Below are positions 35,142-64,000 of a stretch of DNA of 64,000 bases, one piece after another. Within the stretch, counting starts at the first letter, position 1; the number at the start of each line of letters is the position of its first letter. The notes below the pieces were generated by a model. That model was not told where the DNA came from, did not search any database, and saw nothing but the letters and a program-made list of their open reading frames with translations. A program made the position numbers and the translations under genes. This stretch comes from Deltaproteobacteria bacterium (GTDB lineage Bacteria; Acidobacteriota; Thermoanaerobaculia; Multivoradales; JAHZIX01): assembly GCA_022601195.1 (NCBI GenBank), contig JAHZIX010000045.1, positions 628,884 to 692,883 of the forward strand. The letters run 5' to 3'.

Positions 35142-35164
35142 GGGAGCCCTTAGCAATGGAGCCT

Positions 35165-35908: not shown

Positions 35909-36134
35909 GGTATGAGAGCTCCTCCCTGGAGAGTTTGAGGGGAACGACTGAGCAACGCTGCTGCTTTCGCCCCCGTGCTAGCATCAAAGCTCCGTGCCGG
36001 GGCTCGGAGGCTTGCTGAAAACGCTCGTTTCTTCGCCGAGTGACGCCCGGGCAGCGGCCGAGTTCTCGGCGCTCCGAACGCGCTGAGGAAAATCGTTCGA
36101 AGTCGTTTCACGAGAGTACTATGGGAAGGTATCC

Positions 36135-36872
36135 TTGGCTAGAAAAGAGCTAGAAAACAAACCAGTGGTGTCCTCGGGAGAGGAGCCGGTCTTGAGTCGT
36201 CGGACCCTCAACCATTTTGCCTTTTTCCGCTTTCGGAAAGCTCACGAGACGATGGCTGCGGAGGATCGGGCCCAGTTTCACCGACGTTGGCTGGAGGCTC
36301 TTCGCAGCGCCGCAGCTCAAGTGGAGGTTTACCAGGTCTTCCCGACTCGCGCAGATGCAGATATTTTGGTCTGGAGTGCACTGCCTTACGAGGACGACCA
36401 GACCCCTCGCCATTTCTTTGAGGCTTTCGCCAAGGCGACCCTTCCTTTCCGCCGCTATGTGAAGAGTACCGAGATCCTGTGGGGGATGACGCGGCCTTCG
36501 CCCTATGTGGGTGGCAAGAAGCCCCGCGGTATGGACCCTATTGAAGGCAAGAGGCAGAGTTATCTGACCCTCTACCCCTTCGTGAAGACCGCCGAGTGGT
36601 ACGGCATGGGTCGAGAGGCTCGTCAAGGAATGATGAATGAGCACATTCGCATCGGGCGGCAGTTTCCCGAAGTCGATCAACTGCTGCTCTACTCCTTCGG
36701 TCTTCAGGACCAGGAGTTCGTCGTGGTCTACGAGATGGAAGACCTGCCTCGCTACTCGGAGCTCGTTTCGCAGTTAAGAGGTTGTGATGGTCGCCCCTTT
36801 ACGGAGCGAGATACACCGATCTACACGGCGGTGCATCACGCTGCCGAAGACACTCTGGCACTATGGGAATAG
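36135..36872 (+). CDS. chdC: coproheme decarboxylase (HemQ / chlorite-dismutase family)
   Basis: RTLNHFAFFRF...YLTLYPFVKTAEWY typical of HemQ. Start uncertain: TTG at 36135 or GTG at ~36165. Confidence 0.75.
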   Translation: MARKELENKPVVSSGEEPVLSRRTLNHFAFFRFRKAHETMAAEDRAQFHRRWLEALRSAAAQVEVYQVFPTRADADILVWSALPYEDDQTPRHFFEAFAKATLPFRRYVKSTEILWGMTRPSPYVGGKKPRGMDPIEGKRQSYLTLYPFVKTAEWYGMGREARQGMMNEHIRIGRQFPEVDQLLLYSFGLQDQEFVVVYEMEDLPRYSELVSQLRGCDGRPFTERDTPIYTAVHHAAEDTLALWE

Positions 36873-36876
36873 AGCT

Positions 36877-37845
36877 GTGGAGGTAAAGGACTCACAAGCT
36901 TTGGATCCAGGACCTTCGGACACCGCTTCCTGGGCTGTCCTGCTGATGGCCTATGGGGGGCCGGACTCTCTGGCCGATGTAGAGCCCTTCCTGCTGGATA
37001 TCCGCGGTGGCCGGCCAACTTCCCAGGATCTCATCGACGAAATAAAGAGTCGTTACGAACAGATCGGTGGTCGGTCGCCCCTGCTCGAGATCTCTCGGGC
37101 ACAGGCAGCAGCCCTCGAGGAGTTGCTCCAGTCTGGTGATCATCCTGAGACATTTCAGGTGTATCTCGGCATGCGTCATTGGCATCCTTATATTTCCCAA
37201 GCGGTTCGCCAAATTGTCGCGGACGGCCACCGTCGCATCATCGCCCTCTGTCTGGCACCTCACTTCTCACGGATGAGCGTCGGGGCCTATTTTAGGAAGG
37301 TCGAGGAGGCCATTGCTGAGGTCGGGGCTGAGGTCGAGGTACGGTGGGTGCGGGGCTATGGTGATCACCCCCTCTTTCAGGAGTCTCTGGCTTATCGGGC
37401 CAAGCTGGGCCTACAGAAGTTCCCTGTTGACGAACCCGAGGAGGTGCGGGTTCTCTTTACCGCTCACAGCCTCCCGGCGAGGATTTTGGCGGAAGGAGAC
37501 CCTTACGATGCCCAATTGCGAGCGACGGCGAGAGGGGTCGCGGATTTGTTGGGGGACGAGGTTTGGGAGATGTGCTACCAAAGCGCCGCAGCGGGAGCCG
37601 TCGATTGGTTGGGGCCCCATTTGGACCAGCGCATTGGTGAATTGGCCGCGGAGGGTTGTCGCAACGTGCTGGTCGCCCCCATCGGTTTCATCTCCGACCA
37701 CGTAGAAATTCTCTTCGACATTGACATCGAAGCCCGAGCGCTGGCAGAACAAGCCGGGATCCGTCTGGAAAGAACCGAGTCCCTAAATACCGCTCCCGGT
37801 CTCATCGAAGCCATGGCCGACATCGTCCAACGCATCGCCTCCTGA
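36877..37845 (+). CDS. cpfC: coproporphyrin ferrochelatase
   Basis: WAVLLMAYGGPDSLADVEPFL, HSLP, LVAPIGFISDHVEILFDIDIE. GTG 36877 chosen, 4 nt after the hemQ stop. Confidence 0.75.
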   Translation: MEVKDSQALDPGPSDTASWAVLLMAYGGPDSLADVEPFLLDIRGGRPTSQDLIDEIKSRYEQIGGRSPLLEISRAQAAALEELLQSGDHPETFQVYLGMRHWHPYISQAVRQIVADGHRRIIALCLAPHFSRMSVGAYFRKVEEAIAEVGAEVEVRWVRGYGDHPLFQESLAYRAKLGLQKFPVDEPEEVRVLFTAHSLPARILAEGDPYDAQLRATARGVADLLGDEVWEMCYQSAAAGAVDWLGPHLDQRIGELAAEGCRNVLVAPIGFISDHVEILFDIDIEARALAEQAGIRLERTESLNTAPGLIEAMADIVQRIAS

Positions 37846-37887
37846 TCTCGGATCGAACTTCTAAGGCCGCCTCTTGAGCTCTCCCCG

Positions 37888-39342
37888 ATGACTGCGGAAA
37901 AAACGTCGCCGAAGGAGCGAGGCAGGCCTCGAGTGGTGATCGTCGGTGGTGGTCTCACCGGGCTCACCGCTGCCTATGCCTTGCAGATGCGAGCCGCAGA
38001 GACCGGCGAGACGATCCCTTTCACCGTGCTGGAGAGCGGTTCCCGATGGGGGGGCAACCTGGTCACGGAAGAGGTCGATGGCTTCCTGGTTGAAGGGGGG
38101 GCGGACTCTTTCATCGCGCGCAAGCCTTGGGCCATGGAGTTGGCGCGCGAGTTGGGGCTGGAGGGGGAGATCATTCGTACTCCGGCTGCCCATGGGCGAG
38201 TCTACGTCCTGCGACGGGGCCGGCTGGTGCCCTTGCCAACAGGAATGCGCTTCGTAGTTCCTACTCAGATTCGACCGCTCCTGGCTTCGCCGCTCCTCTC
38301 CTGGCCCGGGAAGCTGCGCATGGCGCTGGAGCGATGGGTTCCCAAGAAGAGGGTCGATGTTTCCGGGGGAAGCGACGAGAGCCTCGCGAGTTTCATTCGA
38401 CGTCGGTTCGGTCGGGAGGCTCTGGAGGTGATAGGAGAACCTCTCATGGCAGGCATCCACGCTGCCGACCCGGAGCATCTGAGCCTAGAAGCCGCCTTCC
38501 CCGATGTCGCCGTCCTGGAACAACGTTTCGGTAGCCTGATCCGCGGTATGAAGGCGGTTCACAGCTCGCTGCCGAGGCGAGGGCAGACGGAGAACTCCTC
38601 CCGAGTCACCCTTCGCGGTGGAGTGCAGCAACTGGTGACCGGCCTGGTGGAGCGAATCGATCCGGCATCCTTGCGACTGCGGTCATCGGTGAGGAACCTG
38701 CGGCGCCAGGGAGCCGGCATCGAGATCGAGCTGGAGGCCGGGGAGCGTCTCCATGCCGAGGCGGTGATCCTTGCGACGTCTGCCTTTGTTGCAGCGAAGT
38801 TGGTAGGCGAGCTGGATGGGGCCCTAGGGGAGGGGCTCGGGGCGATTCCCTACATCTCCTCGGCGACCGTTTCCCTCGGTTTTCGAGAAGAACACGTCGG
38901 GAGGGCCATGGACGCCCTGGGCTTCGTCATTCCTGGTAGCGAGCCGAGCCGCCTGCAGGCTTGCACCTGGAGCTCCGCCAAGTTTGACGGTCGGGCACCA
39001 GCGGGCCACGTCTTGATGAGGGCTTTCGTCGGTGGTGCTCGCAACGAAGAGTTAGTCGAGTGGAGCGATGACGATTTGAAATCTTTGGTTCTGGCAGAGC
39101 TGGGCCCCCTCATGAGGCTTTCGGGAGATCCTGTCCTAGTTCGCATTCATAGATGGCGAAAGGGAATACCCCAATACCATCTCGGCCACTCGGAGCGTCT
39201 CGCCCGCATCGAAGCCCACGACGTGAATGGCCTGTTTCTGGCCGGCAACGCCTACCGTGGTGTGGGACTGCCCGATTGCATCCACAGTGGCCGCCAGGCG
39301 GCCGATGAGGTGGTAGATTTCCTCGGCAGGAGGGTCGAGTGA
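37888..39342 (+). CDS. cgoX: coproporphyrinogen III / protoporphyrinogen oxidase (HemY family)
   Basis: FAD dinucleotide fold VVIVGGGLTGLTAAYAL; 484 aa HemY-like. Confidence 0.8.
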   Translation: MTAEKTSPKERGRPRVVIVGGGLTGLTAAYALQMRAAETGETIPFTVLESGSRWGGNLVTEEVDGFLVEGGADSFIARKPWAMELARELGLEGEIIRTPAAHGRVYVLRRGRLVPLPTGMRFVVPTQIRPLLASPLLSWPGKLRMALERWVPKKRVDVSGGSDESLASFIRRRFGREALEVIGEPLMAGIHAADPEHLSLEAAFPDVAVLEQRFGSLIRGMKAVHSSLPRRGQTENSSRVTLRGGVQQLVTGLVERIDPASLRLRSSVRNLRRQGAGIEIELEAGERLHAEAVILATSAFVAAKLVGELDGALGEGLGAIPYISSATVSLGFREEHVGRAMDALGFVIPGSEPSRLQACTWSSAKFDGRAPAGHVLMRAFVGGARNEELVEWSDDDLKSLVLAELGPLMRLSGDPVLVRIHRWRKGIPQYHLGHSERLARIEAHDVNGLFLAGNAYRGVGLPDCIHSGRQAADEVVDFLGRRVE

Positions 39343-43825: not shown

Positions 43826-45598
43826 ATGGAAGAAACTCACCACGACGACCATCACCACGAAGAGCTGGGCTTCTGGAGGAAGTACGTCTTCTCCGTGGAC
43901 CATAAGGTGATCGGCATTCAATATGCCATCACCGGATTGGTGTTCCTCTTCTTCGGCTTCTGTCTGATGATGCTGATGCGGTGGCAGATTGCCTACCCGG
44001 GCCGCGCCTTGCCGATCATCGGAGGCCTGCTCGGAGATACCCGCATGCCTGGTGGTGTCATGCTGCCGGAGTTCTACAACCAGCTGGGAGCGATGCACGG
44101 CACTATCATGGTGTTCCTCGGCGTCGTTCCCCTGGGTGTCGGCGGCTTCGGGAATTTCGTCGTACCGCTGCAAATCGGCGCTCCGGATATGGCTTTCCCA
44201 CGACTCAACATGGCGAGCTATTGGTCGTTCTTGGTTGGCGGCGTGATCATGTGTCTGAGCTTCTTCGCCCCTGGTGGAGCCGCTCAGGCCGGTTGGACTT
44301 CCTATCCGCCCCTTTCCGAGATCACTCCGGTCGCCGGCCAGGTGATGTGGTTGGTGGGCATGGTGTTCTTGATCACCTCGTCCTTGCTCGGTTCGGTGAA
44401 TTTCATCGTCACGATCATTCAGCTGCGGGCCAAGGGCTTGAGTTTCATGCGACTGCCCTTCTTCGTGTGGGCGCAGTTCGTGACCTCCTTTCTCTTGCTG
44501 CTCGCTTTTCCGCCCCTGGAAGCCGCGGGCTTCATGCAGCTCATGGACAGGCTCCTGGACACGAGTTTCTTTCTCCCCAGTGGCCTGGTGGTAAGTGGAG
44601 AAGTTCTAGCGGTGAGTGGCGGAGGTAGCCCCATTCTCTGGCAGCATCTTTTCTGGTTCCTGGCTCATCCAGAGGTCTACGTGTTGATTCTGCCAGCCTT
44701 GGGAATCGTCGCAGAGATCGTTGCCAACAACACCCGCAAGCCTCTCTGGGGCTATAAGTCGCTGGTCTACTCGGTGATCTTCCTCGGTTTCATGTCCTTT
44801 GTCGTGTGGGCTCACCACATGTTCATCACTGGCATGGGTACCGTGATGTCGGCCTTCTTCCAGACCACCACGATGATCATCTCGATTCCATCGGTAGTTA
44901 TCTTGACGGTATTGATCCTGTCTCTGTGGGGAGGCTCGATACGATTCAACACGCCGATGCTCTTCGCCTTGGCCTTTCTTCCGATGTTCGCGATCGGAGG
45001 TCTAACGGGCCTGCCGCTGGGCTTTTCGTCGACGGATATTCATCTTCACGATACCTACTACGTCATCGGTCACTTTCACTACGTGGTGGCACCGGGAACC
45101 ATCTTTGCTCTCTTTGCAGGGATCTACTATTGGTATCCAAAGGCGACCGGGCGAAAAATGAACGAGACTCTGGGCAAATTACATTTTTGGCCCAGTTTTA
45201 TCTGCATGAACCTGATCTTCTTCCCCATGTTGATGCAGGGTCTTGCCGGTCTCAACCGCCGAATGTACGACGGTGGTGAGATCTATGCTCATGCCCAGCC
45301 GGTGATTCACTTGAACGAAGTGATTTCCATAGCTGCTTGGGTGATGGCCTTGGCGCAGATCTTTTTTATCGTTAACTTCTTCCTGAGTCTCAAGACCGGA
45401 GAGAAGATTGGCGAGAACCCGTGGCGAGCTACGACCCTGGAGTGGGCCGCGCCGTCGCCGCCACCCCACGGAAACTTTCTCACCGAGCCGGTGGTTTACC
45501 GGGGCCCCTATGAATACAGTGTGCCGGGAGCTAGCGAAGACTTCTCCCCCCAATTCGATGAGGCTGCAGCGCCCAACAGCGAGCCTGTAACAGCTTAG
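43826..45598 (+). CDS. ctaD: cytochrome c oxidase subunit I (heme-copper oxidase)
   Basis: Twelve-TM HCO subunit I: WFFGHPEVY-like WFLAHPEVYVLILPALG, HH motif region. 590 aa. Confidence 0.9.
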   Translation: MEETHHDDHHHEELGFWRKYVFSVDHKVIGIQYAITGLVFLFFGFCLMMLMRWQIAYPGRALPIIGGLLGDTRMPGGVMLPEFYNQLGAMHGTIMVFLGVVPLGVGGFGNFVVPLQIGAPDMAFPRLNMASYWSFLVGGVIMCLSFFAPGGAAQAGWTSYPPLSEITPVAGQVMWLVGMVFLITSSLLGSVNFIVTIIQLRAKGLSFMRLPFFVWAQFVTSFLLLLAFPPLEAAGFMQLMDRLLDTSFFLPSGLVVSGEVLAVSGGGSPILWQHLFWFLAHPEVYVLILPALGIVAEIVANNTRKPLWGYKSLVYSVIFLGFMSFVVWAHHMFITGMGTVMSAFFQTTTMIISIPSVVILTVLILSLWGGSIRFNTPMLFALAFLPMFAIGGLTGLPLGFSSTDIHLHDTYYVIGHFHYVVAPGTIFALFAGIYYWYPKATGRKMNETLGKLHFWPSFICMNLIFFPMLMQGLAGLNRRMYDGGEIYAHAQPVIHLNEVISIAAWVMALAQIFFIVNFFLSLKTGEKIGENPWRATTLEWAAPSPPPHGNFLTEPVVYRGPYEYSVPGASEDFSPQFDEAAAPNSEPVTA

Positions 45599-45629
45599 TC
45601 GGAACGAGAGACCGAGGAGATCTGAGACT

Positions 45630-46229
45630 ATGTCAGCAACCGAAATTCCCTATACCGTAGAGGCTCGGCCCGACACTGGCCTGAATAATGTCAAGATCGG
45701 CATCTGGCTCTTTCTAGCCTCCGAGGTAATGCTCTTTGGTGCGCTCTTTGCCAGCTACATCATGTTGCGGGTCGGAGCCGCAGAATGGCCCCATGGCTCG
45801 CACTACTTGAGTGTTCCCTGGGCGACCCTCAATACCGTCGTCCTGATCAGCTCCAGTGTCTCTATGGTCATGGCCTGGGCTTCTTTGATCCGTAAGGATT
45901 TCGGTAAGTACCGGCTCTACATGGGACTGACGATTCTGGCTGCCTTTGGCTTCCTGGGTATCAAATTCATCGAGTACTCGTCGAAGTTTGCCCACGGCTA
46001 CTTGCCGGAGACGAATACCTTCTTAGCGATCTACTTCACGCTGACCGGTCTTCACGGCCTTCACGTTATTGGTGGCATGCTCTACAACCTCTATCTCTGG
46101 GGACCTGGAGCGAAGATGTGGAAGACCAACCCGCAGCAGTTCATCAACCGGGTCGAGGTTTCTGGCCTCTTCTGGCATTTCGTCGACTTGGTGTGGATCT
46201 TCCTCTTTCCGATTTTGTATCTTCTGTAG
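45630..46229 (+). CDS. ctaE: cytochrome c oxidase subunit III
   Basis: LFLASEVMLFGALFASY, HVIGGMLYNLYLWG; 199 aa. Confidence 0.85.
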   Translation: MSATEIPYTVEARPDTGLNNVKIGIWLFLASEVMLFGALFASYIMLRVGAAEWPHGSHYLSVPWATLNTVVLISSSVSMVMAWASLIRKDFGKYRLYMGLTILAAFGFLGIKFIEYSSKFAHGYLPETNTFLAIYFTLTGLHGLHVIGGMLYNLYLWGPGAKMWKTNPQQFINRVEVSGLFWHFVDLVWIFLFPILYLL

Positions 46230-46285
46230 CTCCAAGGACTGTCGAGGGTATCGAAAAGAAGTTGTTGGAGAGAAAGGGAAAGCCA

Positions 46286-46581
46286 TGAGTCACGAACAAG
46301 ACATCGACAAACACGTCCGCACCTACATCAAGGTGTTTGGGGCCCTCTTGGTACTGACGGTGGTCACCGTAGCCGTTTCATATCTTCATTTGTCTACGGG
46401 CGCAGCTATCGCCCTCGCTTTGGTGGTGGCTACGGTGAAGGGGTCGCTGGTAGCGTGCTACTTCATGCATCTGCTGGATGAACGGAAGTTGATTCTTTCG
46501 GTCCTCTTGCTGACTGTGCTCTTCTTCTTCTTTGTTCTCATTGGCCCCTGGGCCACTGAGTTGAACCCCATCGTCCTCTAG
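46286..46581 (+). CDS. cytochrome c oxidase subunit IV (prokaryotic caa3-type subunit IV family)
   Basis: 98 aa, three TM, YIKVFGALLVLTVVTVAVS...VKGSLVACYFMHL. ATG 46286 with AAAGGGAAAG SD. The track ORF starts spuriously upstream. Confidence 0.65.
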
Positions 46582-46594
46582 AGAGCTAAAGAAG

Positions 46595-46801
46595 ATGTCC
46601 CTCAAGACACTGCACGTAGTCTTCGTGATCTCTTCGACCCTGTTGTCACTGGGTTTTGGAGTCTGGTCGTGGACCCATCACCAGAATGGTGCCGGGGCGG
46701 GCTATCTCTGGGCAGCCATAGCCGCCTTTCTCGCGGCGATCATGCTGGTGGTCTATGGCAAGTGGTTTCTCAACAAGTTGAAGGATGTGAGCTTTCTATG
46801 A
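46595..46801 (+). CDS. small membrane protein (68 aa) in the oxidase operon
   Basis: Two predicted TM helices. Stop overlaps the next ORF start (ATGA). Confidence 0.35.
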   Translation: MSLKTLHVVFVISSTLLSLGFGVWSWTHHQNGAGAGYLWAAIAAFLAAIMLVVYGKWFLNKLKDVSFL

Positions 46802-47043
46802 GAAGGCGAACGTTGGCCCTGTCAGCCGCTGTCGCGGTGTGCCTACTGTTGATTTGTGGCGATGCCTTTGGTTGCCCGGTCTGCTATGGCGAATCCGACG
46901 ATGAGATTCTTCGCGGCGCGGAGCTTTCCGTGCTGTTCATGGTAGGCCTGACCTACATGCTATTGGTGGGCGGCGGAGTTCTGTCGTTCTTCCTCTATCG
47001 CCGTCACGTTCGTCGCAGCTCCGCAGCGCTGGAGACGGGTTAG
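46799..47043 (+). CDS. small membrane protein (81 aa) with a CPVC motif, in the oxidase operon
   Basis: N-terminal TM plus GCPVCYGESDDE, second TM. Translationally coupled to the previous ORF. Confidence 0.35.
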
Positions 47044-47066
47044 TTGGTAAAGGAGCTCTTCGAGCT

Positions 47067-47876
47067 ATGAATGAATTCCTCGGACTTCCGCAAGTTGCCT
47101 CCGCTCACGGCGGAGCCCTCGACTCGCTAAACAGCCTGGTGCACTGGATGATGTTCATCATCTTCATCGGATGGGGTCTTCTCTTTCTCTACATGCTGTT
47201 TCGGTTCAGCGCGAAGCGAAATCCCAAAGCGGACTACCATGGGTTGAAGAGTCGTGCCTCTACCTATGGTGAAGTGGCCGTGGCCTTGGTCGAGGCTATT
47301 CTCCTCATTGGCTTTTCGATTCCTCTCTGGTCGGACCGGGTAGATGACTTTCCAGACCCCAGCGCCGCGGTGCAAGTACGAGTTGTCGCTGAGCAATTTG
47401 CCTGGAACATGCATTATCCAGGGCCTGACGGCACTTTTGGACGAACCGCAGTGGATTTGGTGGATGCGGAGACGAATCCCCTTGGGTTGGATTCAGAAGA
47501 CCCGGCGGCGGCGGACGACATCACGACCATCAACCAGCTTCACCTACCGGTAGACAAACCTGCGCTCATCTATGTGAGCTCCAAGGATGTGATCCACAGC
47601 TTCACTCTCAATCGCATGAGGGTGAAGCAAGACACCATCCCCGGGCTCGAGACACCGGTTTGGTTTACCCCCACGGTCACCACTGCTGAGATGGCAGAGC
47701 TGGAGGGGGCAGGCGACGACTTTAGCTATGAGATCTCCTGTTCTCAGCTCTGTGGGCTCGGTCACTACCGCATGCGTGGATTCTTGAAGATTCACACCCA
47801 GGAAGACTTCGATACCTGGCTGGTGGAGAACGCTCCCAGCGAAGATGCTGGCGACGAAGACGACTTCTGGAACTAG
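47067..47876 (+). CDS. ctaC: cytochrome c oxidase subunit II (CuA-containing, no fused cytochrome c domain)
   Basis: CuA ligands VIHSF ... CSQLCGLGHYRM. Two N-terminal TM helices. 269 aa. Confidence 0.85.
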   Translation: MNEFLGLPQVASAHGGALDSLNSLVHWMMFIIFIGWGLLFLYMLFRFSAKRNPKADYHGLKSRASTYGEVAVALVEAILLIGFSIPLWSDRVDDFPDPSAAVQVRVVAEQFAWNMHYPGPDGTFGRTAVDLVDAETNPLGLDSEDPAAADDITTINQLHLPVDKPALIYVSSKDVIHSFTLNRMRVKQDTIPGLETPVWFTPTVTTAEMAELEGAGDDFSYEISCSQLCGLGHYRMRGFLKIHTQEDFDTWLVENAPSEDAGDEDDFWN

Positions 47877-52252: not shown

Positions 52253-52332
52253 AGGCCAACTCGTCGACTCGAGCTCGCCTACACCTCCCTGAGCCTCTGT
52301 CTTCCGTTTCGGCTCGTCGCCGGTGGGAGTAG

Positions 52333-58715: not shown

Positions 58716-59126
58716 CTACATGCCAAATTTTCCCCGCGCCTGCTCCAAAACGCTTTCGTCGACCACGCCATGGCCATTCGTCTGAGCGAAATGTTCGACT
58801 CCCTGTTTAGCCATGGGACGGACGAAATCAGGAATGTTCTCCAGACGAGCCAGAGCTTCCGGTGTCCAGGCGATTCCCTCGGAGGGTGTCGCCTCCATCT
58901 GAGCGACCACATCGGAGAAGGGGCATTTTCCTGGGGTGTTATCCGCGGCTGGGCCAATCTTGACTCCGAGGGATTGGACCATCTGGGTCTCGGAGGGGTT
59001 TGTCAGCATGGCGATTTGAGAGGAGCAGATCGGGCATTGGAAAACGGCGCTCAAGGTACCACTCTGCGGCGTTTCCGTCGCCTGTAGTTTCATTGCTTCG
59101 TCGCACTGCACACAGAGAAATTTCAT
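58716..59126 (-). CDS. zinc-ribbon + PCP_red-domain protein (136 aa)
   Basis: CxxC...CxxC (CVQCDE...CPICSS). C-terminal WTPEALARLENIPDFVRPMAKQGVEHFAQTNGHGVVD resembles the C-terminal domain of protochlorophyllide reductase subunit B. Confidence 0.5.
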   Translation of the reverse strand: MKFLCVQCDEAMKLQATETPQSGTLSAVFQCPICSSQIAMLTNPSETQMVQSLGVKIGPAADNTPGKCPFSDVVAQMEATPSEGIAWTPEALARLENIPDFVRPMAKQGVEHFAQTNGHGVVDESVLEQARGKFGM

Positions 59127-59995
59127 GATCGTCTTCCTTCCAGAGCTAGAACCAGGTTTTGAGCGACCGCCTCGATAGCCTGCGCGGAGGGGCGGTCTTG
59201 GCTTTCGGCCTCGGGCCAGCCGCGATCGCAGAGCTCGGCTAGGGCCGGATCAAAGGGAATCCGTCCTAAAAGAGGCAATGGAATCGGCGTCGTGGCAGCG
59301 GGAAAAAGAGGCTTGATTTCATCGCAATCTTGGCAATAGTAGCCGGCCATGTTCTCTACGTAGCCGACCATGTCTGCGCCCGCAGCTTCCAGCGCCGCGA
59401 CAGAACGAGCCACCACCCCTCGAGCGACATCCGAGGGAACCGTAACCAGGGCAAACAGCGTATCGGCAGGCAGAAAGTCCGCGAACTGAACACTCCGCTC
59501 TGCTCCGGGTGGTAGATCGAAGAGCAGATAGTCGAGAGACCCCCAATCTAGGCTTCCCATGAGCTGGCCTAGAAAGGCAAACTCCTTGGTGGAGCGCCAA
59601 ACGTGCTCGTCCCCTTGTGAGACTGTCTCCAAGGAAACTGGCCGGTCGGCAGGGACCAGGCTGCCCATGGAGACGACCCCGATTCCATCCGGCCGACGAG
59701 GCACTGACAAGCCACGGGCACCAGGAACCCAGGGCGCTGCCGTGAGACCGGCGAGGTGAGCTTGGCAGGGCCCATTGAAGTCCGCATCGAGGATCGCCAC
59801 GGTAGCTCCACCGGCTCGTAGGGCCTGAGCGAGGGCCATGGTCACTGTGCTCTTGCCGACTCCCCCTTTGCCAGATCCTACGGCAACCCGGAAACGAACG
59901 CCCGCCAGGGCGCTCTGAATCGCTTCCAGTTGGGCTTCAACTTGGGCTACGACGTTGGAACCGCCGTCTCCCTGAATATCGAAATAGCTCTTCAT
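59123..59995 (-). CDS. Mrp/NBP35-family P-loop ATPase (iron-sulfur cluster carrier, ApbC-like)
   Basis: Deviant Walker A VGSGKGGVGKST, Mrp C-terminal CxxC (YYCQDCDE). ATG at 59995 (MKSYFDIQGD) preferred; the track ORF extends to 60058. Confidence 0.8.
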   Translation of the reverse strand: MKSYFDIQGDGGSNVVAQVEAQLEAIQSALAGVRFRVAVGSGKGGVGKSTVTMALAQALRAGGATVAILDADFNGPCQAHLAGLTAAPWVPGARGLSVPRRPDGIGVVSMGSLVPADRPVSLETVSQGDEHVWRSTKEFAFLGQLMGSLDWGSLDYLLFDLPPGAERSVQFADFLPADTLFALVTVPSDVARGVVARSVAALEAAGADMVGYVENMAGYYCQDCDEIKPLFPAATTPIPLPLLGRIPFDPALAELCDRGWPEAESQDRPSAQAIEAVAQNLVLALEGRRS

Positions 59996-60094
59996 GGTGT
60001 GGTCATCACGGATTTGTCTTCTGTCTCTCGTTTCTCTTCTGCCCACTCCCTCCCCCATCGCCGTGATGCCGGGTATGTTGGCGGTGGGCTAGGC

Positions 60095-60955
60095 TCAGAG
60101 GGGCGTCGCAGTCGCTTCGAGTCGATCATACTTGGCCTGAGGTTCAAATCCCAGGTTCGCCAGAACCTCAGTATCCATTTCCCCAGGGAGCAGGCGAGGG
60201 ATTCGCAGTGGCAAATTGCCGATGCTTGCCAGGTGGCCGACCAGGATGCCGAGAAGTAGCTCGCTCCGGCTTGGATCCCGGCACCCGGAAGCGAGAATGT
60301 CGATCACTTCGTCCGGCGGGTCAGCGGTGCGAAACAGAACGAAGGCTTCGGTTTGCTCCGGGGAAGCGATACAAAGGCCTTGCAGGCTTTCCTCTCGATT
60401 CAGGAGGGTCTGGAGGGTGCGCTCCCAGGCTGCTCCGGATGGTGGCTGCAGGAGTCCTTGATCGACCAACTCCGCCACGGTAGTGGGCAGAAGAAGACCC
60501 TCCGGGGCTGGAGTTCCCGGCGTCCGAGGCCGTTGGTAGTCGGTCAGGGGTTCCCCGGCTCGGGAGTAGCCTGCTGAGGCGAATAGCGAATTCACCTCGG
60601 GGCGATCCAAGGGGATCTCGGCAATCAGTCGCTCCGGTCCTAGGACAGCTAATTTTTGACTCAGGGAGGTCAGCATGTGTCGAGCGTGGCCTCGTCGCTG
60701 GTAGTCCTGCCGCACGCCAACGAGGTGAATCAACACCTCTTCTGGACGCTTGGTCCCCATCATGATGCCAATAGGCTCCTTGCCCTCCGTGGCCACCATG
60801 GCGTTGCTGACCCAGACATTGAGCTCTTTTACTTTGGTTCGCAGGCCGTCGACGGTCAGGGGGAGCGTACCGGGAAGATGAACATTGAAACATTCATTGA
60901 CCGCTTGGCACAGGAGGGGCATGTCGTCCGGGCGGCAAAAGCGATAGGAAACCAT
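60095..60955 (-). CDS. GNAT-family acetyltransferase-like protein
   Basis: LVGVRQDYQRRGHARHML acetyl-CoA-binding-like motif. Start at MVSYRF (60955). The track's N-terminal extension overlaps the upstream gene and is Arg/Pro-rich junk. Confidence 0.5.
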   Translation of the reverse strand: MVSYRFCRPDDMPLLCQAVNECFNVHLPGTLPLTVDGLRTKVKELNVWVSNAMVATEGKEPIGIMMGTKRPEEVLIHLVGVRQDYQRRGHARHMLTSLSQKLAVLGPERLIAEIPLDRPEVNSLFASAGYSRAGEPLTDYQRPRTPGTPAPEGLLLPTTVAELVDQGLLQPPSGAAWERTLQTLLNREESLQGLCIASPEQTEAFVLFRTADPPDEVIDILASGCRDPSRSELLLGILVGHLASIGNLPLRIPRLLPGEMDTEVLANLGFEPQAKYDRLEATATPL

Positions 60956-61034
60956 AATGAAGGAGCCCCGACGGCTGGTCTCGCCATCGGGGCCCGTAAT
61001 TCTCTCTTGGTCAGTCCAGTCTTGGGTCCTGGAT

Positions 61035-63122
61035 CTAGTTCTCGTTGAGCTCGCGTCGTTTCTTTTCCATCGCGGACATGAGGCCGACCTCATTGAGGGC
61101 CGGGCCAGGAGAGGAGTCCGCCGCATCGACGGGACAGGATTCCTCCGCCGGGGTCTCCGGGGCCGCTTCCGCGGCTGGCTTGGTAGCTTCCCCGCCGCCG
61201 TATTGGCCAAGCATTTCGGCCATCATTTGCTTGCCGTATTCGATGCCATCTTCTACCAGGGCGAGATCGATCTCGACGGCCCCTCTTTCCTCGGCAACCT
61301 CCTCGATACGGCTCTGGGTGCGGTCCCGCATGAAGCCCGAAGGGACGCGCAAGACTCTCTCGATGGCACCCTCTGTCCAGTCAAAGGCTGAAATCAGAGG
61401 AACATTCTTGGAATCTCGAGCGAGGATACGTAGCTCCGGATCTTCCTCGAGGGAGGTCGCCGTTACCGGTTCCGGGCTCGCGATGGAGTTGTCATCTGAC
61501 TCTGCGATCTCCGGGCGCACTGGAGGGGTGTAGAGAACGCCAGTCTCTTCCTCCACGAAGCGTTGGGCAAAGTCGAGGGTGATGGGATCGAGCTTCTTGA
61601 CCCGGGCTGATTTTTCGATCCGGGCTTTGGCTCGACGTCGCTGGTATTTGTCTTCGATGGAGCGTAGGGCGCCTCGGGCGTCCTTGGTCCAACGCAGCTT
61701 GCGGCCATCGTAGGTGATTTCTTCTTCGATACCCCCTTCGGACCGGGCGATCTTCTCGAGAATCTCCTGAGACACCGTTTCGAAGTCTTCTGCGTTGCAA
61801 ACGGTGCACTTGGCGGGATCTGGAACGCGGGCGGCAACGCCGCACTGCTTGCAGATTGCCACCGGCTCCCGGCTCGCTTTGTCGAGGGCTAGAGCCTCCG
61901 CCAGCTTGGTGGTGGATTTGCCGGTTTGCTTCGGCATAAAGCGCTCCATAGCCTCTGTCACCAAGTCACTGGTCACGACGCTATGCCCTTTTTCTAGAGC
62001 GAGTCGGAGAATTGCGGTCTTAGCGATACCGAGCACCATTTCTGGAACCCGCACCATGCGTGCCTCCGCCTCTTCCGTCCAATGGATGCTCTCTTCCGCC
62101 TTGAGATCGATTTCCGGGGTGACTTCAGAGGTGGTCAGCAGTACGTCGCAAGGGCTGAAGCGAAGCAGGTTCTCGGTATTGCTGCCCAAGCCTTCGTAGC
62201 CATCTTCCCGGTGTACGCCGGTCCGGCCCATGATCATGAGCCAGGGGTTGGTTTTGCGGGCATGATCGAGGACCTTCTGGAAGGCCTTGCCATCCAGAAG
62301 GGTCTTGGTGACTTCCAAGCCTTCCTCTCGCACCATGGTCTCAGCTACGTTGAGGTGGCTTTGGTAGATCTCCGCCAGACCGGTATCGATAATCTCTTCG
62401 TGGAGCTGGTTTTGCTCTTCGAAGCGGAAAATCTTCGCAGCCTTGTCCGTCAAGACCTCGACGATTCCCTTGAACACGGCATAGTGCAAATAGGGATCGT
62501 AGACGCCGATGACTTCGACCTTCTTGTTGAAGCGCTTGGCCATCTCGACGCCCGTCATCAGAGACCCAAAGGATTGGGGACTACCGTCGACACAAACCAG
62601 AATCGTGTCGCTTTCAACTTCCCCCTTCTTGGGAAGATTCTTGACCACCCAGACGTCTCGATCCGCTTCCTGGGCGACGCTGCGGCAGACGGCACCCAAC
62701 TGGCTATCTTTCGTCCGGCCGATGCCGACAGCTCCAAGAACCACCAGGTCGTAGCTGCTCTCGCCGATGTCCTTGAGGATCTCGACGGTGTGCTTGCCGT
62801 CCATCATCTTGCGCTCGCACTCGAGGCCGTTTTTCTGGCACTGCTCATCCATAGACTGCAGGTAGCAGTCGGAAATCAGCTCCAGTCCCATGGTGATCAG
62901 GCTGTCGTGAATCTTTCGCTGGCGATGGAGCTCATTCTCTACCAGATACTCTTCCGGCAGGGTGAACTCCATCTGGCGAAAACGATAGTCGTGCATTTTG
63001 GCGGCGTAGACATGGCAGCCAACCAGCTTCGATTGGTACTCCTTACCCAGGCGCACGGCGCAATCGATGGCACGATTGGAATGGGGCGAATTGTCGACCG
63101 GAACATAAATCGTTTCGTACAT
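61035..63122 (-). CDS. tandem universal-stress-protein (UspA x2) domains fused to PCP_red - zinc ribbon - PCP_red
   Basis: Two Usp-like modules (IYVPVDNSPHS...; ILVCVDGSPQS...), each followed by VVLGAVG / MIMGRTG. PCP_red-like IHWTEEAEARMVRVPEMVLGIAKTAILRLALEKGHSVV and FDWTEGAIERVLRVPSGFMRDRTQSRIEEVAEERGAVEI flank CKQCG...CTVCN. Confidence 0.6.
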   Translation of the reverse strand: MYETIYVPVDNSPHSNRAIDCAVRLGKEYQSKLVGCHVYAAKMHDYRFRQMEFTLPEEYLVENELHRQRKIHDSLITMGLELISDCYLQSMDEQCQKNGLECERKMMDGKHTVEILKDIGESSYDLVVLGAVGIGRTKDSQLGAVCRSVAQEADRDVWVVKNLPKKGEVESDTILVCVDGSPQSFGSLMTGVEMAKRFNKKVEVIGVYDPYLHYAVFKGIVEVLTDKAAKIFRFEEQNQLHEEIIDTGLAEIYQSHLNVAETMVREEGLEVTKTLLDGKAFQKVLDHARKTNPWLMIMGRTGVHREDGYEGLGSNTENLLRFSPCDVLLTTSEVTPEIDLKAEESIHWTEEAEARMVRVPEMVLGIAKTAILRLALEKGHSVVTSDLVTEAMERFMPKQTGKSTTKLAEALALDKASREPVAICKQCGVAARVPDPAKCTVCNAEDFETVSQEILEKIARSEGGIEEEITYDGRKLRWTKDARGALRSIEDKYQRRRAKARIEKSARVKKLDPITLDFAQRFVEEETGVLYTPPVRPEIAESDDNSIASPEPVTATSLEEDPELRILARDSKNVPLISAFDWTEGAIERVLRVPSGFMRDRTQSRIEEVAEERGAVEIDLALVEDGIEYGKQMMAEMLGQYGGGEATKPAAEAAPETPAEESCPVDAADSSPGPALNEVGLMSAMEKKRRELNEN

Positions 63123-63172
63123 TGATGCTCTCCAAAGAGGCTGCTCTCGAGCGGTCAGGCGGACCTGCCTGG

Positions 63173-64000
63173 CTACGCTCTCGCCGCCTCCGATTTCTTC
63201 TTCCTACGTACCCAGCCGATGATGAGTAGCTCGAGGGCGAGAACGCCTAGGCCCGCCTTGACCATAGGGGCCACGGGGGACGGAGCTTCTCGCGGTTTCA
63301 GATAGACGTTGTACCAGGGAGTCAGCGCGCGCTTGTTGCCGCGCTCCCGATTGAAGCCGTTCCAGACCGAAAAGGCAACCGGCAGGAAGACTCCTTCTTC
63401 GAAAGTCATGCTCGACCCGCTCCGAAGCTTGCGCTTGAAGATCACGGACCACTGGCCTTCCTCATAGCTGGCGACCATCTCCGGAGCCTTGGATTCCGAT
63501 TCCACGACACTGACGCTGCCTCGCGCCTCGTAGAGCTTGGAGCGTTGGTCGGCGAGGTCTGCGTACCAGAGCTCAACCGGCAACTCGGTGTCACCAAAGA
63601 GAAAGTAGGGCTTGCGAATCCCCTCGGGGCTCGTTTTTGGGAATTGGAGGGCGACCGCATCGGAGAACTCGCTGGTGGAGGATGCTGCCGAGGCGTCGGC
63701 CGTGTCATCGTCATCCCCCCAAAAGCTGTCGTCGCCTCCCGCGTCGTCAGCTGCCTCTTCCTCGCCCCAGAAGTCCTCGCTGCTATCTTCCTCTGCCTCT
63801 TCCTCGTCCCCCCAAAAGCCGCCGCCATCTTCCTCTTCTTCGTCCGCCACGGAGGCGCCTTCCGGTTGGTCTTCCTCCCAAAGAGGGATCGCCAACTCGG
63901 GGCCATTGAGGCCGGTGGTCTCCGCCGCCATATCGTTCCAGGTGACCTGGAAGGCGATCTCTTCGCGGCTATGAATAGCTCGCACCGAGATGGACGTGGC
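63173..64000 (-). CDS. partial (N-terminus beyond window) membrane-anchored protein with an ethylbenzene-dehydrogenase-like heme-binding domain and an acidic FWG(D/E) repeat insert
   Basis: C-terminal LPVAFSVWNGFNRERGNKRALTPWYNVYL resembles EB_dh/DMSO-reductase heme-b-subunit-like domains. C-terminal TM anchor. The reading frame stays open to the window edge. Confidence 0.35.
   Translation of the reverse strand, partial: ATSISVRAIHSREEIAFQVTWNDMAAETTGLNGPELAIPLWEEDQPEGASVADEEEEDGGGFWGDEEEAEEDSSEDFWGEEEAADDAGGDDSFWGDDDDTADASAASSTSEFSDAVALQFPKTSPEGIRKPYFLFGDTELPVELWYADLADQRSKLYEARGSVSVVESESKAPEMVASYEEGQWSVIFKRKLRSGSSMTFEEGVFLPVAFSVWNGFNRERGNKRALTPWYNVYLKPREAPSPVAPMVKAGLGVLALELLIIGWVRRKKKSEAARA

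What the first reader, a model, noticed from the sequence alone, without database searches (positions are those of the whole stretch)
58716..63122. Cluster of PCP_red-domain proteins around an Mrp/NBP35 ATPase, one fused to tandem Usp domains
Three adjacent minus-strand genes make up the cluster. The first is a 695-aa protein: Usp-Usp-PCP_red-Zn ribbon-PCP_red. A GNAT-like gene follows. Then comes an Mrp/NBP35 P-loop ATPase with its C-terminal CxxC. Last, overlapping by 4 nt, is a small Zn-ribbon + PCP_red protein. PCP_red is the C-terminal domain of protochlorophyllide reductase subunit B (ChlB/BchB). In that enzyme the B subunit docks the ATP-dependent reductase component L, a NifH-like ATPase of the same SIMIBI class as Mrp/MinD. 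Three PCP_red modules next to an Mrp ATPase therefore suggest an uncharacterised ATP-driven FeS/electron-delivery or docking system, possibly stress-regulated through the Usp domains.
Basis: partly seen in the sequence, partly recalled or inferred. Interest (0 to 1): 0.65.

Follow-up and report, generated by a model that had tools for sequence, protein, structure and literature searches.

The report
Haem-linked helper genes beside bd-like oxidase
Four neighbouring genes (a stress-protein fusion, an acetyltransferase, an Mrp-type ATPase and a small cysteine-rich protein) share a chlorophyll-enzyme domain and form a conserved, undescribed helper set that sits beside poorly understood respiratory oxidases in many bacterial phyla; they most likely supply or insert haem, and do not act as an electron-delivery machine.

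Summary
Four minus-strand genes (58716-63122) encode Usp-Usp-PCP_red-4Cys-PCP_red-PCP_red (695 aa), a GNAT (286 aa), an Mrp/NBP35 ATPase with CxxC (290 aa), and a 4-Cys + PCP_red protein (136 aa) whose start overlaps the Mrp stop by ATGA. The array is not free-standing. It is the tail of a cytochrome bd-like (OR-N2-type) operon: CydA-like, three cytochromes c, EbdC-like haem b subunit. That operon's last gene runs off the window at 63173.

The order bd-like operon > Usp-PCP_red > GNAT > Mrp > small recurs in at least 9 phyla, with rearrangements that keep the genes close. A fifth partner recurs too: an AhbD/NirJ-like radical SAM enzyme with its own C-terminal PCP_red. In this window it lies at 33864-35141, next to ChdC, ferrochelatase and CgoX. 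A haem-copper oxidase operon usually flanks the island and is present here at 43826-47876. Where the island is split, Usp-PCP_red stays with the bd-like operon and Mrp-small goes with the haem-copper oxidase.

Best reading: a cytoplasmic haem-cofactor maturation and regulation module for terminal oxidases. No description of the module was found in the searchable literature.

The parts
63173..64000 (-). C-terminal part of a cytochrome c - cytochrome c - EbdC-like (EB_dh) haem b subunit. It is the last gene of the bd-like (OR-N2-type) operon. The gene is 606 aa and continues about 1 kb past the window end.
   Evidence: Pfam EB_dh 46.8 bits; NCBIfam DMSO_red_II_gam 78 bits. The organism's own contig L086 shows the full 606-aa gene preceded by two cytochrome c genes and a CydA-like gene.
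61035..63122 (-). 695-aa tandem-Usp protein fused to PCP_red (348-391), a 4-Cys knuckle (424-442), PCP_red (478-518), PCP_red (582-625), a disordered tail with a Cys-Pro motif (C663-P664) and a conserved terminal helix.
   Evidence: Pfam. Family alignment A2, with long invariant stretches. AlphaFold2 model pLDDT 74.7. The N-terminal half matches the tandem Usp proteins Rv2623 and TTHA0350. More than 4,000 homolog clusters.
60095..60955 (-). 286-aa GNAT-family acetyltransferase-like protein (N-terminal GNAT, uncharacterised C-terminal half).
   Evidence: PF00583 25.4 bits against a 20.7 cut-off. Gene call on own contig. Syntenic in Acidobacteriota, Myxococcota-type, Binatia and Opitutales loci; absent from Bacteroidota, Latescibacterota and Methylomirabilota versions.
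59123..59995 (-). 290-aa Mrp/NBP35-family P-loop ATPase: Walker A GKGGVGKST, DLPPG, CxxC (C-Q-D-C), and a subfamily-specific N-terminal Y-x-D-I-x-GDGGS motif.
   Evidence: PF10609 165.9 bits. Below the ApbC and MrpORP equivalog cut-offs. Aligns with 3KB1/6OBY, 8ZKC and Cfd1 6G2G. Conservation measured in 66 orthologs.
58716..59126 (-). 136-aa protein: 4-Cys ribbon (C5, C8, C31, C34), a disordered linker with an invariant Cys-Pro-Phe (C68), and a C-terminal PCP_red three-helix domain. Translationally coupled to Mrp through an ATGA overlap.
   Evidence: PCP_red 58.6 bits. More than 5,000 homolog clusters. Alignment A1. 4 Cys in 77/77 and CP[hydrophobic] in 70/77 orthologs. Fold matches 2KRU, 2L09 and 2YNM_D. 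Overlap read directly from sequence.
33864..35141 (+). Distant partner in the same window: 425-aa radical SAM - SPASM - PCP_red protein of the AhbD/NirJ (haem side-chain) family.
   Evidence: Pfam Radical_SAM 116, SPASM 46, PCP_red 47 bits. NCBIfam NirJ2 347 bits and AhbD 302 bits, both below cut-offs. AhbD-type auxiliary motif CX2CX5CX2CX17C in 40/40 orthologs. Orthologs lie inside the island in about 45 loci.
36135..39342 (+). Context: coproporphyrin-dependent haem synthesis genes. ChdC/HemQ-like 36135-36872, ferrochelatase 36784-37845, CgoX/HemY-type oxidase 37888-39342.
   Evidence: Pfam Chlor_dismutase 133 bits, Ferrochelatase 288 bits, Amino_oxidase 213 bits. NCBIfam hemH 242 bits (cut-off 124.6) and proto_IX_ox 297 bits (cut-off 97.85).
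43826..47876 (+). Context: haem-copper oxidase operon (COX1 43826-45598, COX3 45636-46226, COX2-like 47067-47876). It is the same type that flanks the island in other phyla.
   Evidence: Pfam COX1 452 bits, COX2 34 bits. tblastn gives 74% / 66% / 65% identity to the L001 operon. Homologous operons lie 1-5 kb from the small gene in at least 15 loci.

Best explanation
The four genes are the cytoplasmic accessory module of a conserved respiratory island. The membrane part of that island is a cytochrome bd-like (OR-N2-type) complex made of a CydA-like protein, three c-type cytochromes and an EbdC-like haem b subunit. A haem-copper oxidase operon usually lies beside it.

The PCP_red domain is the common thread. 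Outside this island it is known only as the C-terminal end of the tetrapyrrole enzyme BchB/ChlB. Within the island it is carried by the Usp fusion (three copies), by the small 4-Cys protein, and by an AhbD/NirJ-like radical SAM enzyme.

My best reading is that the set makes and/or hands over haem to the oxidase apoproteins under low oxygen:
- The radical SAM partner carries out O2-independent side-chain chemistry on an iron tetrapyrrole. The most economical candidate is coproheme to haem b, because this genome uses the coproporphyrin pathway.
- The PCP_red modules either hold the tetrapyrrole or dock the partners onto each other.
- The Mrp-type ATPase and its translationally coupled 4-Cys/Cys-Pro partner act as an ATP-driven chaperone pair. 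They either load Fe-S clusters onto the radical SAM enzyme or drive cofactor hand-off, much as the Mrp-type HypB works with zinc-ribbon HypA for nickel.
- The ATP-type tandem Usp and the GNAT tune the process to energy and acetyl-CoA status.

Shown: domain content, motifs, fold, and conserved synteny across phyla. Inferred: every biochemical role.
For: 1. Synteny. CydA-like > cyt c > cyt c > cyt c/EbdC > Usp-PCP_red > GNAT > Mrp > small occurs on the organism's own contig and in about 25 loci from Acidobacteriota, Myxococcota-type, Binatia, Bacteroidota/Rhodothermales, Latescibacterota, Opitutales, Methylomirabilota, Gemmatimonadota and Entotheonella. Gene order is rearranged but proximity is kept. 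Of 37 loci with at least 9.5 kb on both sides: Usp-PCP_red in 30, GNAT in 24, rSAM in 20, EbdC in at least 23, CydA-like in at least 21.
2. The operon composition matches the published description of OR-N2 operons: several cytochromes c plus an EbdC homolog (supplement of bioRxiv 10.1101/2021.01.16.426971).
3. The rSAM-SPASM-PCP_red partner scores best against NirJ2, AhbD, NirJ and AhbC. It has the AhbD auxiliary-cluster motif in 40/40 orthologs (motif from PMC10114771). The AhbD model ends before the PCP_red extension.
4. Further haem links:
- in the window the rSAM lies 1 kb from ChdC, ferrochelatase and CgoX;
- in L078 haem o synthase directly follows the small gene, and in L081 a protoporphyrinogen-oxidase-family gene lies two genes upstream;
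- CtaB and COX operons lie beside the module in many loci and in the window;
- one PCP_red protein is fused to a haem-oxygenase-like domain.
5. Where the island is split (a 12-Mb genome), Usp-PCP_red stays with the bd-like operon and Mrp-small sits next to the COX operon.
6. An invariant Cys-Pro-Phe lies in the disordered linker of the small protein, in 70/77 orthologs. It has the form of a haem regulatory motif (own knowledge).
7. Precedents:
- the Mrp-type HypB (3VX3, 5AUN) is among the structural relatives;
- Usp proteins flanking respiratory operons rise at low O2 in Nitrospira marina (PMC8115632).
Against: - No experiment bears on any of these proteins.
- PCP_red has no demonstrated ligand. 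I could not verify what the last 55 residues of BchB contact in DPOR.
- Myxococcota- and Bacteroidota-type hosts are expected to use the protoporphyrin pathway (own knowledge). Coproheme would then not be available, so the rSAM may do different chemistry.
- The bd-like complex has no obvious Fe-S subunit, so an Fe-S role for Mrp must concern the rSAM, which is absent from about half of the fully flanked loci.
- 7 of 66 Mrp orthologs lack the CxxC.
- The Cys-Pro motif in the Usp tail is lineage-restricted.
- High cross-phylum identities (Usp 52-83%, COX1 69-82%) fit transfer of the island as a unit, which by itself preserves linkage.
- All statistics are conditional on presence of the small gene. 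The reverse frequency, bd-like operons that carry the module, was not measured.
Confidence: 0.45

Rival explanations
1. This is a DPOR-like, ATP-driven electron-delivery or docking system: the Mrp dimer carries a bridging [4Fe-4S] cluster, docks on PCP_red modules as BchL docks on BchNB, and passes electrons or clusters to a client, under stress control by Usp.
For: Mrp and the small PCP_red gene are almost always adjacent and are translationally coupled. The CxxC is kept in 59/66 orthologs. Mrp and BchL are both SIMIBI ATPases (own knowledge). In 20 of 104 PCP_red proteins the 4-Cys unit scores as a rubredoxin-like domain, so a redox role for it is conceivable. AhbD-type enzymes need an electron acceptor.
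Against: No nitrogenase-like catalytic partner is present. BchB/ChlB models match only the last ~55 residues. No source I could read says PCP_red contacts the L protein. No PCP_red-ParA/Mrp fusion occurs in the 104 sampled architectures. The CxxC is lost in 7 orthologs, including one inside a complete island (L015). Mrp/NBP35 proteins are cluster carriers, not known reductases (PMC6345978 title and abstract).
Confidence: 0.15
2. A purely regulatory or positioning module. Usp and GNAT sense energy state and modify oxidase subunits or each other. PCP_red is only a protein-protein interaction module. The Mrp-like ATPase acts like ParA/MinD to place or gate the oxidase complexes in the membrane. 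No cofactor is handled.
For: The tandem Usp resembles Rv2623 and TTHA0350 and retains the G-2x-G-9x-G-[ST]-type ATP motif in domain 1. A mycobacterial GNAT acetylates a Usp (own knowledge). Loss of CxxC in some orthologs. Usp stays with the bd-like operon when the island splits.
Against: The ATPase scores far better against Mrp/NBP35 (166 bits) than against MinD, ParA or MipZ (26-49 bits). Repeated linkage to an AhbD/NirJ-like enzyme and to haem synthesis genes is unexplained by pure regulation. GNAT is missing in several phyla while the rest persists.
Confidence: 0.2
3. A metal (Cu or Fe) chaperone pair for the oxidases. The 4-Cys plus Cys-Pro small protein binds a metal ion and the Mrp-type ATPase drives its insertion, as HypB-HypA, CooC or UreG do. 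PCP_red only targets the pair to its client.
For: The Mrp-small pair travels with the haem-copper oxidase operon when separated from the bd-like operon. The Mrp-type HypB is a structural relative. Five conserved cysteines in the small protein. A CopD-like gene lies in the Latescibacterota islands.
Against: Oxidase copper sites are loaded from the periplasmic side (own knowledge), whereas these proteins have no signal peptides or membrane segments. This model does not explain PCP_red on a haem radical SAM enzyme.
Confidence: 0.1
4. No functional unit: unrelated genes carried together on a horizontally transferred respiratory island.
For: High cross-phylum identities suggest transfer of the island as a block.
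Against: Proximity survives several independent rearrangements and insertions (Opitutales, Bacteroidota, Methylomirabilota, Multivoradales). The Mrp-small overlap is conserved. Three different proteins of the island share one rare domain: only 1,697 representative proteins among 1.84 billion score E<=0.001.
Confidence: 0.05

Closest known systems
C-terminal PCP_red domain of DPOR subunit B (BchB/ChlB; PDB 2YNM_D, 3AEK_B; isolated domains 2KRU, 2L09)
   Same: Same ~50-residue three-helix domain by sequence (E 6e-9 to 5e-4) and by predicted fold (rmsd 1.1-2.1 A). In both settings it is appended to, or accompanies, an enzyme that acts on a tetrapyrrole.
   Different: No nitrogenase-like core, no BchN or BchL partners, no photosynthesis genes. 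Here the domain is free-standing or fused to Usp, 4-Cys or radical SAM modules and is repeated up to three times.
Mrp/NBP35/ApbC Fe-S cluster carrier ATPases (A. fulgidus 3KB1/6OBY, 8ZKC, Cfd1-Nbp35 6G2G; MrpORP of Desulfovibrio, PMC6345978)
   Same: PF10609 fold, deviant Walker A, and a CxxC at the position of the cluster-bridging cysteines.
   Different: Scores far below the ApbC and MrpORP equivalog cut-offs (106 vs 348; 150 vs 450). Has its own N-terminal GDGGS motif and GAER in place of GTGD after DLPPG. CxxC is lost in ~10% of orthologs. Always paired with a PCP_red protein.
HypB(Mrp-type)-HypA nickel chaperone pair of Thermococcus (PDB 3VX3, 5AUN-5AUQ)
   Same: An Mrp/MinD-type ATPase working with a small zinc-ribbon protein encoded beside it. 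A plausible working analogy for the Mrp-small pair (3VX3 hit; mechanism from own knowledge).
   Different: No HypA homology beyond a Cys4 knuckle, no hydrogenase genes, and the partner carries PCP_red and a Cys-Pro motif instead of a Ni site.
AhbD (haem b synthase) and NirJ radical SAM enzymes; HemW radical SAM haem chaperone
   Same: The island's rSAM partner has CX3CX2C and the AhbD auxiliary motif CX2CX5CX2CX17C, and scores best against NirJ2 and AhbD. HemW is a precedent for a radical SAM protein delivering haem to a respiratory membrane enzyme.
   Different: Below all equivalog cut-offs (302-347 vs 500). Has an extra C-terminal PCP_red. Found in aerobes with oxidase operons rather than in sirohaem-pathway anaerobes. 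Activity unknown.
Cytochrome bd-like 'OR-N2' operons (Murali, Gennis & Hemp; bd-like oxidases of Nitrospira/Nitrospina; TO_1 of Ca. Manganitrophus)
   Same: The upstream operon has the published make-up: a CydA-like subunit without the quinol site, several cytochromes c and an EbdC homolog.
   Different: Those papers do not mention the Usp-PCP_red, GNAT, Mrp, small or rSAM genes (no occurrences in text or supplements). I did not run their classifier on the CydA-like protein.
NifB-NifX / NafY cofactor hand-off in nitrogenase maturation
   Same: A working analogy: a radical SAM enzyme with a C-terminal carrier domain, plus free-standing copies of that domain that shuttle the product (PMC13474568).
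   Different: Unrelated domains and cofactor. This is analogy only.

Membership tests
PCP_red (PF08369) | HMM score at or above the gathering score (32.5 bits) | tested here: met
   Small protein 58.6 bits. 695-aa protein 65.1 bits overall; its segments score 39.1 bits (met), 29.9 and 21.2 bits (below the cut-off on their own, E 5.6e-7 and 3e-4). rSAM 46.9 bits.
PCP_red (PF08369) | Three-helix fold of the solved domains 2KRU and 2L09 | tested here: met
   AlphaFold2 model of the small protein (C-terminal part pLDDT ~87) aligns to 2KRU (TMt 0.79, rmsd 1.1), 2L09 (TMt 0.68) and ChlB 2YNM_D (rmsd 1.2).
DPOR subunit B (BchB/ChlB) | Nitrogenase-like catalytic core; full-length equivalog score | tested here: not met
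   NCBIfam DPOR_BchB models match only profile positions ~457-535, at 34-38 bits against cut-offs of 490-509.
Mrp/NBP35 Fe-S carrier ATPases | PF10609 match and deviant Walker A GKGGxGK[ST] | tested here: met
   165.9 bits against 27.1. GKGGVGKST is conserved (>=95% per column) in the 66-sequence ortholog alignment.
Mrp/NBP35 Fe-S carrier ATPases | C-terminal CxxC that bridges a [4Fe-4S] cluster | tested here: met
   C-Q-D-C aligns with the CPNC/CSNC of 3KB1 and 8ZKC. Present in 59/66 orthologs and lost in 7.
Mrp/NBP35 Fe-S carrier ATPases | Binds and transfers an Fe-S cluster | not testable with these tools
   Needs reconstitution and transfer assays.
ApbC / MrpORP equivalogs | Score above the curated equivalog cut-off | tested here: not met
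   ApbC 105.9 vs 348; MrpORP 150 vs 450. This is a distinct subfamily.
Universal stress protein, tandem ATP-binding type | Two Usp domains; fold of Rv2623/TTHA0350; G-2x-G-9x-G-[ST] motif | tested here: met
   PF00582 64.7 bits for each half. Foldseek E 2e-16 to 3CIS and 3AB8. Domain 1 has G130-x2-G133-x9-G143-[SA]. Domain 2 has one extra residue in the spacer (alignment A2). Nucleotide binding itself was not tested.
GNAT acetyltransferases | PF00583 above its cut-off | tested here: met
   25.4 bits against 20.7, marginal. Related GNAT models fall below their cut-offs. Substrate unknown.
AhbD/NirJ tetrapyrrole radical SAM enzymes (partner at 33864-35141) | CX3CX2C plus the auxiliary motif CX2CX5CX2CX17C | tested here: met
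   39/40 and 40/40 full-length orthologs respectively. Motif as given in PMC10114771.
AhbD/NirJ tetrapyrrole radical SAM enzymes (partner at 33864-35141) | Equivalog-level score; activity on coproheme or didecarboxysirohaem | tested here: not met
   NirJ2 347 and AhbD 302 bits against a cut-off of 500. Activity is not testable here. Treated as a paralogous subfamily.
OR-N2 cytochrome bd-like operon | CydA-like subunit with several cytochromes c and an EbdC homolog in one operon | tested here: met
   Own contig L086 and L082, compared with the description. Subfamily assignment with the authors' HMMs was not tested. A crude hydropathy count gives ~12 segments against the published 14 helices.
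Haem regulatory (Cys-Pro) motif proteins | Cys-Pro followed by a hydrophobic residue in a flexible region; binds haem | tested here: inconclusive
   The sequence motif CPF is invariant in A1, present in 70/77 orthologs, and lies in a segment with pLDDT <50. Haem binding is not testable here.

The most novel reading that the evidence does not exclude
PCP_red is a dedicated tetrapyrrole hand-off domain. The island then encodes a self-contained, O2-independent line that makes haem b, or a side-chain-modified haem, with an AhbD/NirJ-like enzyme and delivers it, with an Mrp-type ATPase and its Cys-Pro partner, into cytochrome bd-like and haem-copper oxidases. That would be the first dedicated haem synthesis-and-insertion machinery described for terminal oxidases. 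It would also be a route to finding out what cofactors the enigmatic bd-like enzymes carry.
Probability: 0.2. Interest if true: 0.85.

Novelty: new variant of a known kind. Interest (0 to 1): 0.66.

Why it matters
Cytochrome bd-like (OR-N) enzymes are widespread, occurring in nitrifiers, manganese oxidisers, Acidobacteriota, Myxococcota and others. Their function, cofactors and assembly are unknown, and the literature calls them enigmatic (PMC3578206).

A conserved set of cytoplasmic partners gives concrete experimental handles. The set comprises an AhbD/NirJ-like haem enzyme, three kinds of protein carrying a domain otherwise known only from a chlorophyll enzyme, and a distinct Mrp-type ATPase. 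The handles are haem-binding tests, knock-outs and co-purification.

The finding also proposes a function for PF08369 outside photosynthesis, and for thousands of proteins now annotated only as 'universal stress protein', 'Mrp/NBP35 family ATP-binding protein' or 'PCP reductase family protein'. Finally, it suggests that many aerobes keep an oxygen-independent haem step tied to their oxidases.

Tried and rejected
- Literature searches for PF08369/PCP_red, 'PCP reductase', orange-protein-complex genes, AhbD/NirJ with bd-like, and bd-like with Usp/Mrp/radical SAM found nothing describing this module. My recollection that Desulfovibrio DVU2107 carries PCP_red could not be checked and is not used.
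- I tried to learn what the PCP_red part of BchB contacts in DPOR. I found only a remark about a C-terminal helix covering the pigment cavity. The key PNAS paper is not held.
- The ~5-kb inserts between Usp/GNAT and Mrp in some loci hold variable, unrelated genes, so they are not part of the module.
- Loci without Mrp (Methylomirabilota/Rokubacteria L044-L052): naive ORF calling in very high-GC DNA was unreliable. Left unresolved.
- The Cys-Pro motif in the Usp tail looked general in close homologs but is restricted to Acidobacteriota-type sequences, so it was down-weighted.
- The Nitrospira marina proteome paper gives only a general Usp / low-O2 precedent, nothing on a Usp-PCP_red.
- Promoter and terminator scans of the region were at chance level.
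- A complex prediction (Mrp with the small protein) was not possible with the single-chain tool and its caps.

Full report
**Observation**

The region 58716-63122 holds four co-directional minus-strand genes.

- **Usp fusion (61035-63122, 695 aa).** Pfam finds two Usp domains and three PCP_red stretches, at residues 348-391, 478-518 and 582-625 (39.1, 21.2 and 29.9 bits when scanned separately). A 4-Cys knuckle lies between the first two.
- **GNAT (60095-60955, 286 aa).** The match is weak but above threshold.
- **Mrp/NBP35 ATPase (59123-59995, 290 aa).** PF10609 scores 166 bits.
- **Small protein (58716-59126, 136 aa).** It has a 4-Cys ribbon and a strong PCP_red (58.6 bits).

The gene starts for the GNAT and the Mrp come from the calls on the organism's own contig. 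The Mrp stop and the small gene's start share ATGA. The Mrp CxxC aligns with the cluster-binding cysteines of solved Fe-S carriers.

The predicted C-terminal fold of the small protein superposes on solved PCP_red domains and on ChlB. The N-terminal half of the large protein superposes on the tandem Usp proteins Rv2623 and TTHA0350.

**What surrounds it**

The gene just upstream (63173 to beyond the window end) is an EB_dh/EbdC-like haem b protein. The organism's own 27-kb contig shows that this gene is 606 aa, with two cytochrome c domains. It is preceded by two more cytochrome c genes and a CydA-like gene. The same holds in an Acidobacteriota chromosome.

[quoted passage not shown] The function of such bd-like proteins is regarded as unsettled (PMC3578206; PMC9040806). 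None of these papers mentions the four genes.

**Conservation**

The small protein belongs to a family of more than 5,000 clusters, and the Usp fusion to one of more than 4,000. Both are very strongly conserved.

A scan of one genome per species returned 78 loci. Mrp lies directly upstream of the small gene in 64 of the 71 loci that have enough flank. Among the 37 loci with at least 9.5 kb on both sides:

| Gene | Loci |
|---|---|
| Usp-PCP_red | 30 |
| GNAT | 24 |
| rSAM partner | 20 |
| EbdC-like | at least 23 |
| CydA-like | at least 21 |

The hosts are labelled Acidobacteriota, delta-proteobacterium/Polyangiaceae, Binatia, Bacteroidota/Rhodothermales, Latescibacterota, Opitutales, Methylomirabilota, Gemmatimonadota, Entotheonella and Nitrospirota. 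Gene order differs between phyla and insertions occur, yet the genes stay close. That argues for functional coupling and not only for shared descent or block transfer.

**A fifth partner, and the haem link**

About 45 loci also hold a radical SAM-SPASM protein with a C-terminal PCP_red. It lies either directly after the small gene or between the EbdC and Usp genes. Its best family matches are NirJ2, AhbD (haem b synthase), NirJ and AhbC, all below equivalog cut-offs. All 40 full-length orthologs carry the AhbD auxiliary-cluster motif CX2CX5CX2CX17C (motif from PMC10114771). The AhbD model ends before the PCP_red extension.

The window has its own copy at 33864-35141. It is 64-72% identical to the in-island copies of Latescibacterota and Bacteroidota. 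It lies 1 kb upstream of ChdC/HemQ, ferrochelatase and a CgoX/HemY-type oxidase, that is, the coproporphyrin-dependent haem genes.

Further links point the same way:

- A haem o synthase gene directly follows the small gene in a Gemmatimonadota locus, and a protoporphyrinogen-oxidase-family gene lies next to small-Usp-rSAM in a gammaproteobacterial locus.
- A haem-copper oxidase operon, often with CtaB, lies within a few kb in at least 15 loci. It is present in the window at 43826-47876.
- In a 12-Mb genome the island is split. Usp-PCP_red stays at the end of the bd-like operon, while Mrp-small sits beside the haem-copper oxidase operon.

**What PCP_red associates with in general**

A profile of the five window PCP_red modules found only 1,697 representative proteins (E<=0.001) among 1.84 billion. 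Of the 104 best hits of at least 240 aa:

- 49 carry Usp;
- 20 carry a rubredoxin-like 4-Cys domain;
- 2-3 carry radical SAM/SPASM;
- one carries a haem-oxygenase-like domain;
- none carries a ParA/Mrp domain.

Together with BchB/ChlB, the domain is thus appended to two unrelated classes of tetrapyrrole enzyme.

**Features of the Mrp and the small protein**

In 66 Mrp orthologs the Walker A and DLPPG motifs are essentially invariant, and a subfamily-specific N-terminal Y-x-D-I-x-GDGGS motif appears. The CxxC is present in 59 and lost in 7, including one ortholog inside a complete island.

The small protein has four invariant ribbon cysteines (77/77) and a Cys-Pro-hydrophobic motif (70/77) in a linker predicted to be disordered. 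The motif has the form of a haem regulatory motif (own knowledge). A similar Cys-Pro in the Usp tail is confined to Acidobacteriota-type sequences.

**Interpretation**

The best-supported statement is contextual. These genes are the cytoplasmic accessory module of a bd-like plus haem-copper oxidase island, and they are tied to haem chemistry through the shared PCP_red domain and the AhbD/NirJ-like partner.

The most likely mechanism (inference, confidence about 0.45) has four parts:

1. The radical SAM enzyme performs O2-independent haem side-chain chemistry. Coproheme to haem b is the simplest case here.
2. The PCP_red modules bind the tetrapyrrole or dock the partners together.
3. The Mrp and its coupled small protein form an ATP-driven chaperone pair. 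They load Fe-S clusters onto the radical SAM enzyme or drive cofactor hand-off. HypB-HypA and HemW are working precedents.
4. Usp and GNAT regulate the process.

They are listed above with their evidence.

The Mrp-PCP_red coupling is real. However, the rationale that PCP_red docks an L-like ATPase could not be substantiated, and the oxidase and haem context was missed.

**Novelty and limits**

Public annotation is generic: 'universal stress protein', 'Mrp/NBP35 family ATP-binding protein', 'GNAT family N-acetyltransferase', 'radical SAM protein', from a MAG labelled Deltaproteobacteria. No paper in the searchable library describes the module.

All functional statements are inferences. The statistics are conditional on presence of the small gene. 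I could not measure how many bd-like operons carry the module, model complexes, or inspect DPOR coordinates.

Noticed in passing
window 33864-39342 (+): An AhbD/NirJ-like radical SAM-SPASM-PCP_red gene lies 1 kb upstream of ChdC/HemQ, ferrochelatase and CgoX/HemY. The genome therefore encodes both an H2O2-dependent and a putative O2-independent last step of the coproporphyrin haem pathway.
   Followed up: yes
window 43826-47876 (+): Haem-copper oxidase operon in the order COX1, COX3, COX4_pro, two small ORFs, and a weak COX2-like gene last. COX1 is 69-82% identical across loci from very different phyla, and the operon accompanies the island there too.
   Followed up: partly
window 56775-58400 (-): An S8 subtilase whose C-terminus carries eight perfect tandem copies of the hexapeptide AFAWNG.
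   Followed up: no
window 60963-60995 (-): A 13-bp stem (10 G-C pairs) ends 8 nt before the GNAT start codon, in the 79-nt Usp-GNAT spacer. It could be a processing or attenuation element. The terminator scan as a whole was at chance level.
   Followed up: no
window 62082-63125 (+): A 347-aa antisense ORF lies inside the Usp gene. It is almost certainly a spurious high-GC ORF, given the strong conservation of the minus-strand protein.
   Followed up: partly
window 51056-56634 (-): Directly downstream of the cluster (after the subtilase) lie a 1,414-aa hybrid histidine kinase with Reg_prop/Y_Y_Y beta-propeller repeats and PAS domains, and a response regulator-EAL protein. No link to the cluster was seen in other loci.
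   Followed up: no
L009, L015, L037, L038 (both Cys) and L054, L060, L064 (second Cys): The Mrp orthologs of these loci have lost the CxxC while keeping Walker A, DLPPG and the adjacent small gene.
   Followed up: partly
L030 1-17966: This Binatia contig is a perfect inverted duplication of the whole array (cEB-Usp-GNAT-Mrp-small-rSAM, then the mirror image). It is probably an assembly artefact.
   Followed up: no
L087 363-6636; L089 89-6325: Upstream of the CydA-like gene lie a multihaem cytochrome c and a ~1,020-aa Fer4/molybdopterin-like protein resembling ActA/ActB of alternative complex III. The 'bd-like' complex may therefore be an ACIII/bd hybrid. The window has an NrfD-like gene at 39560-41053.
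   Followed up: no
L078 10001-11644; L081 3030-8582: In a Gemmatimonadota locus the small gene is followed directly by haem o synthase and has no Mrp. A gammaproteobacterial locus has a protoporphyrinogen-oxidase-family gene, a small membrane ORF, then small, Usp-PCP_red and rSAM-PCP_red, also without Mrp.
   Followed up: partly
literature: PMC3578206: The NXR gene clusters of Nitrospina, Kuenenia and Nitrospira that hold a bd-like oxidase are said to include 'one putative zinc finger' protein. Whether it is related to the small 4-Cys/PCP_red protein was not checked.
   Followed up: no
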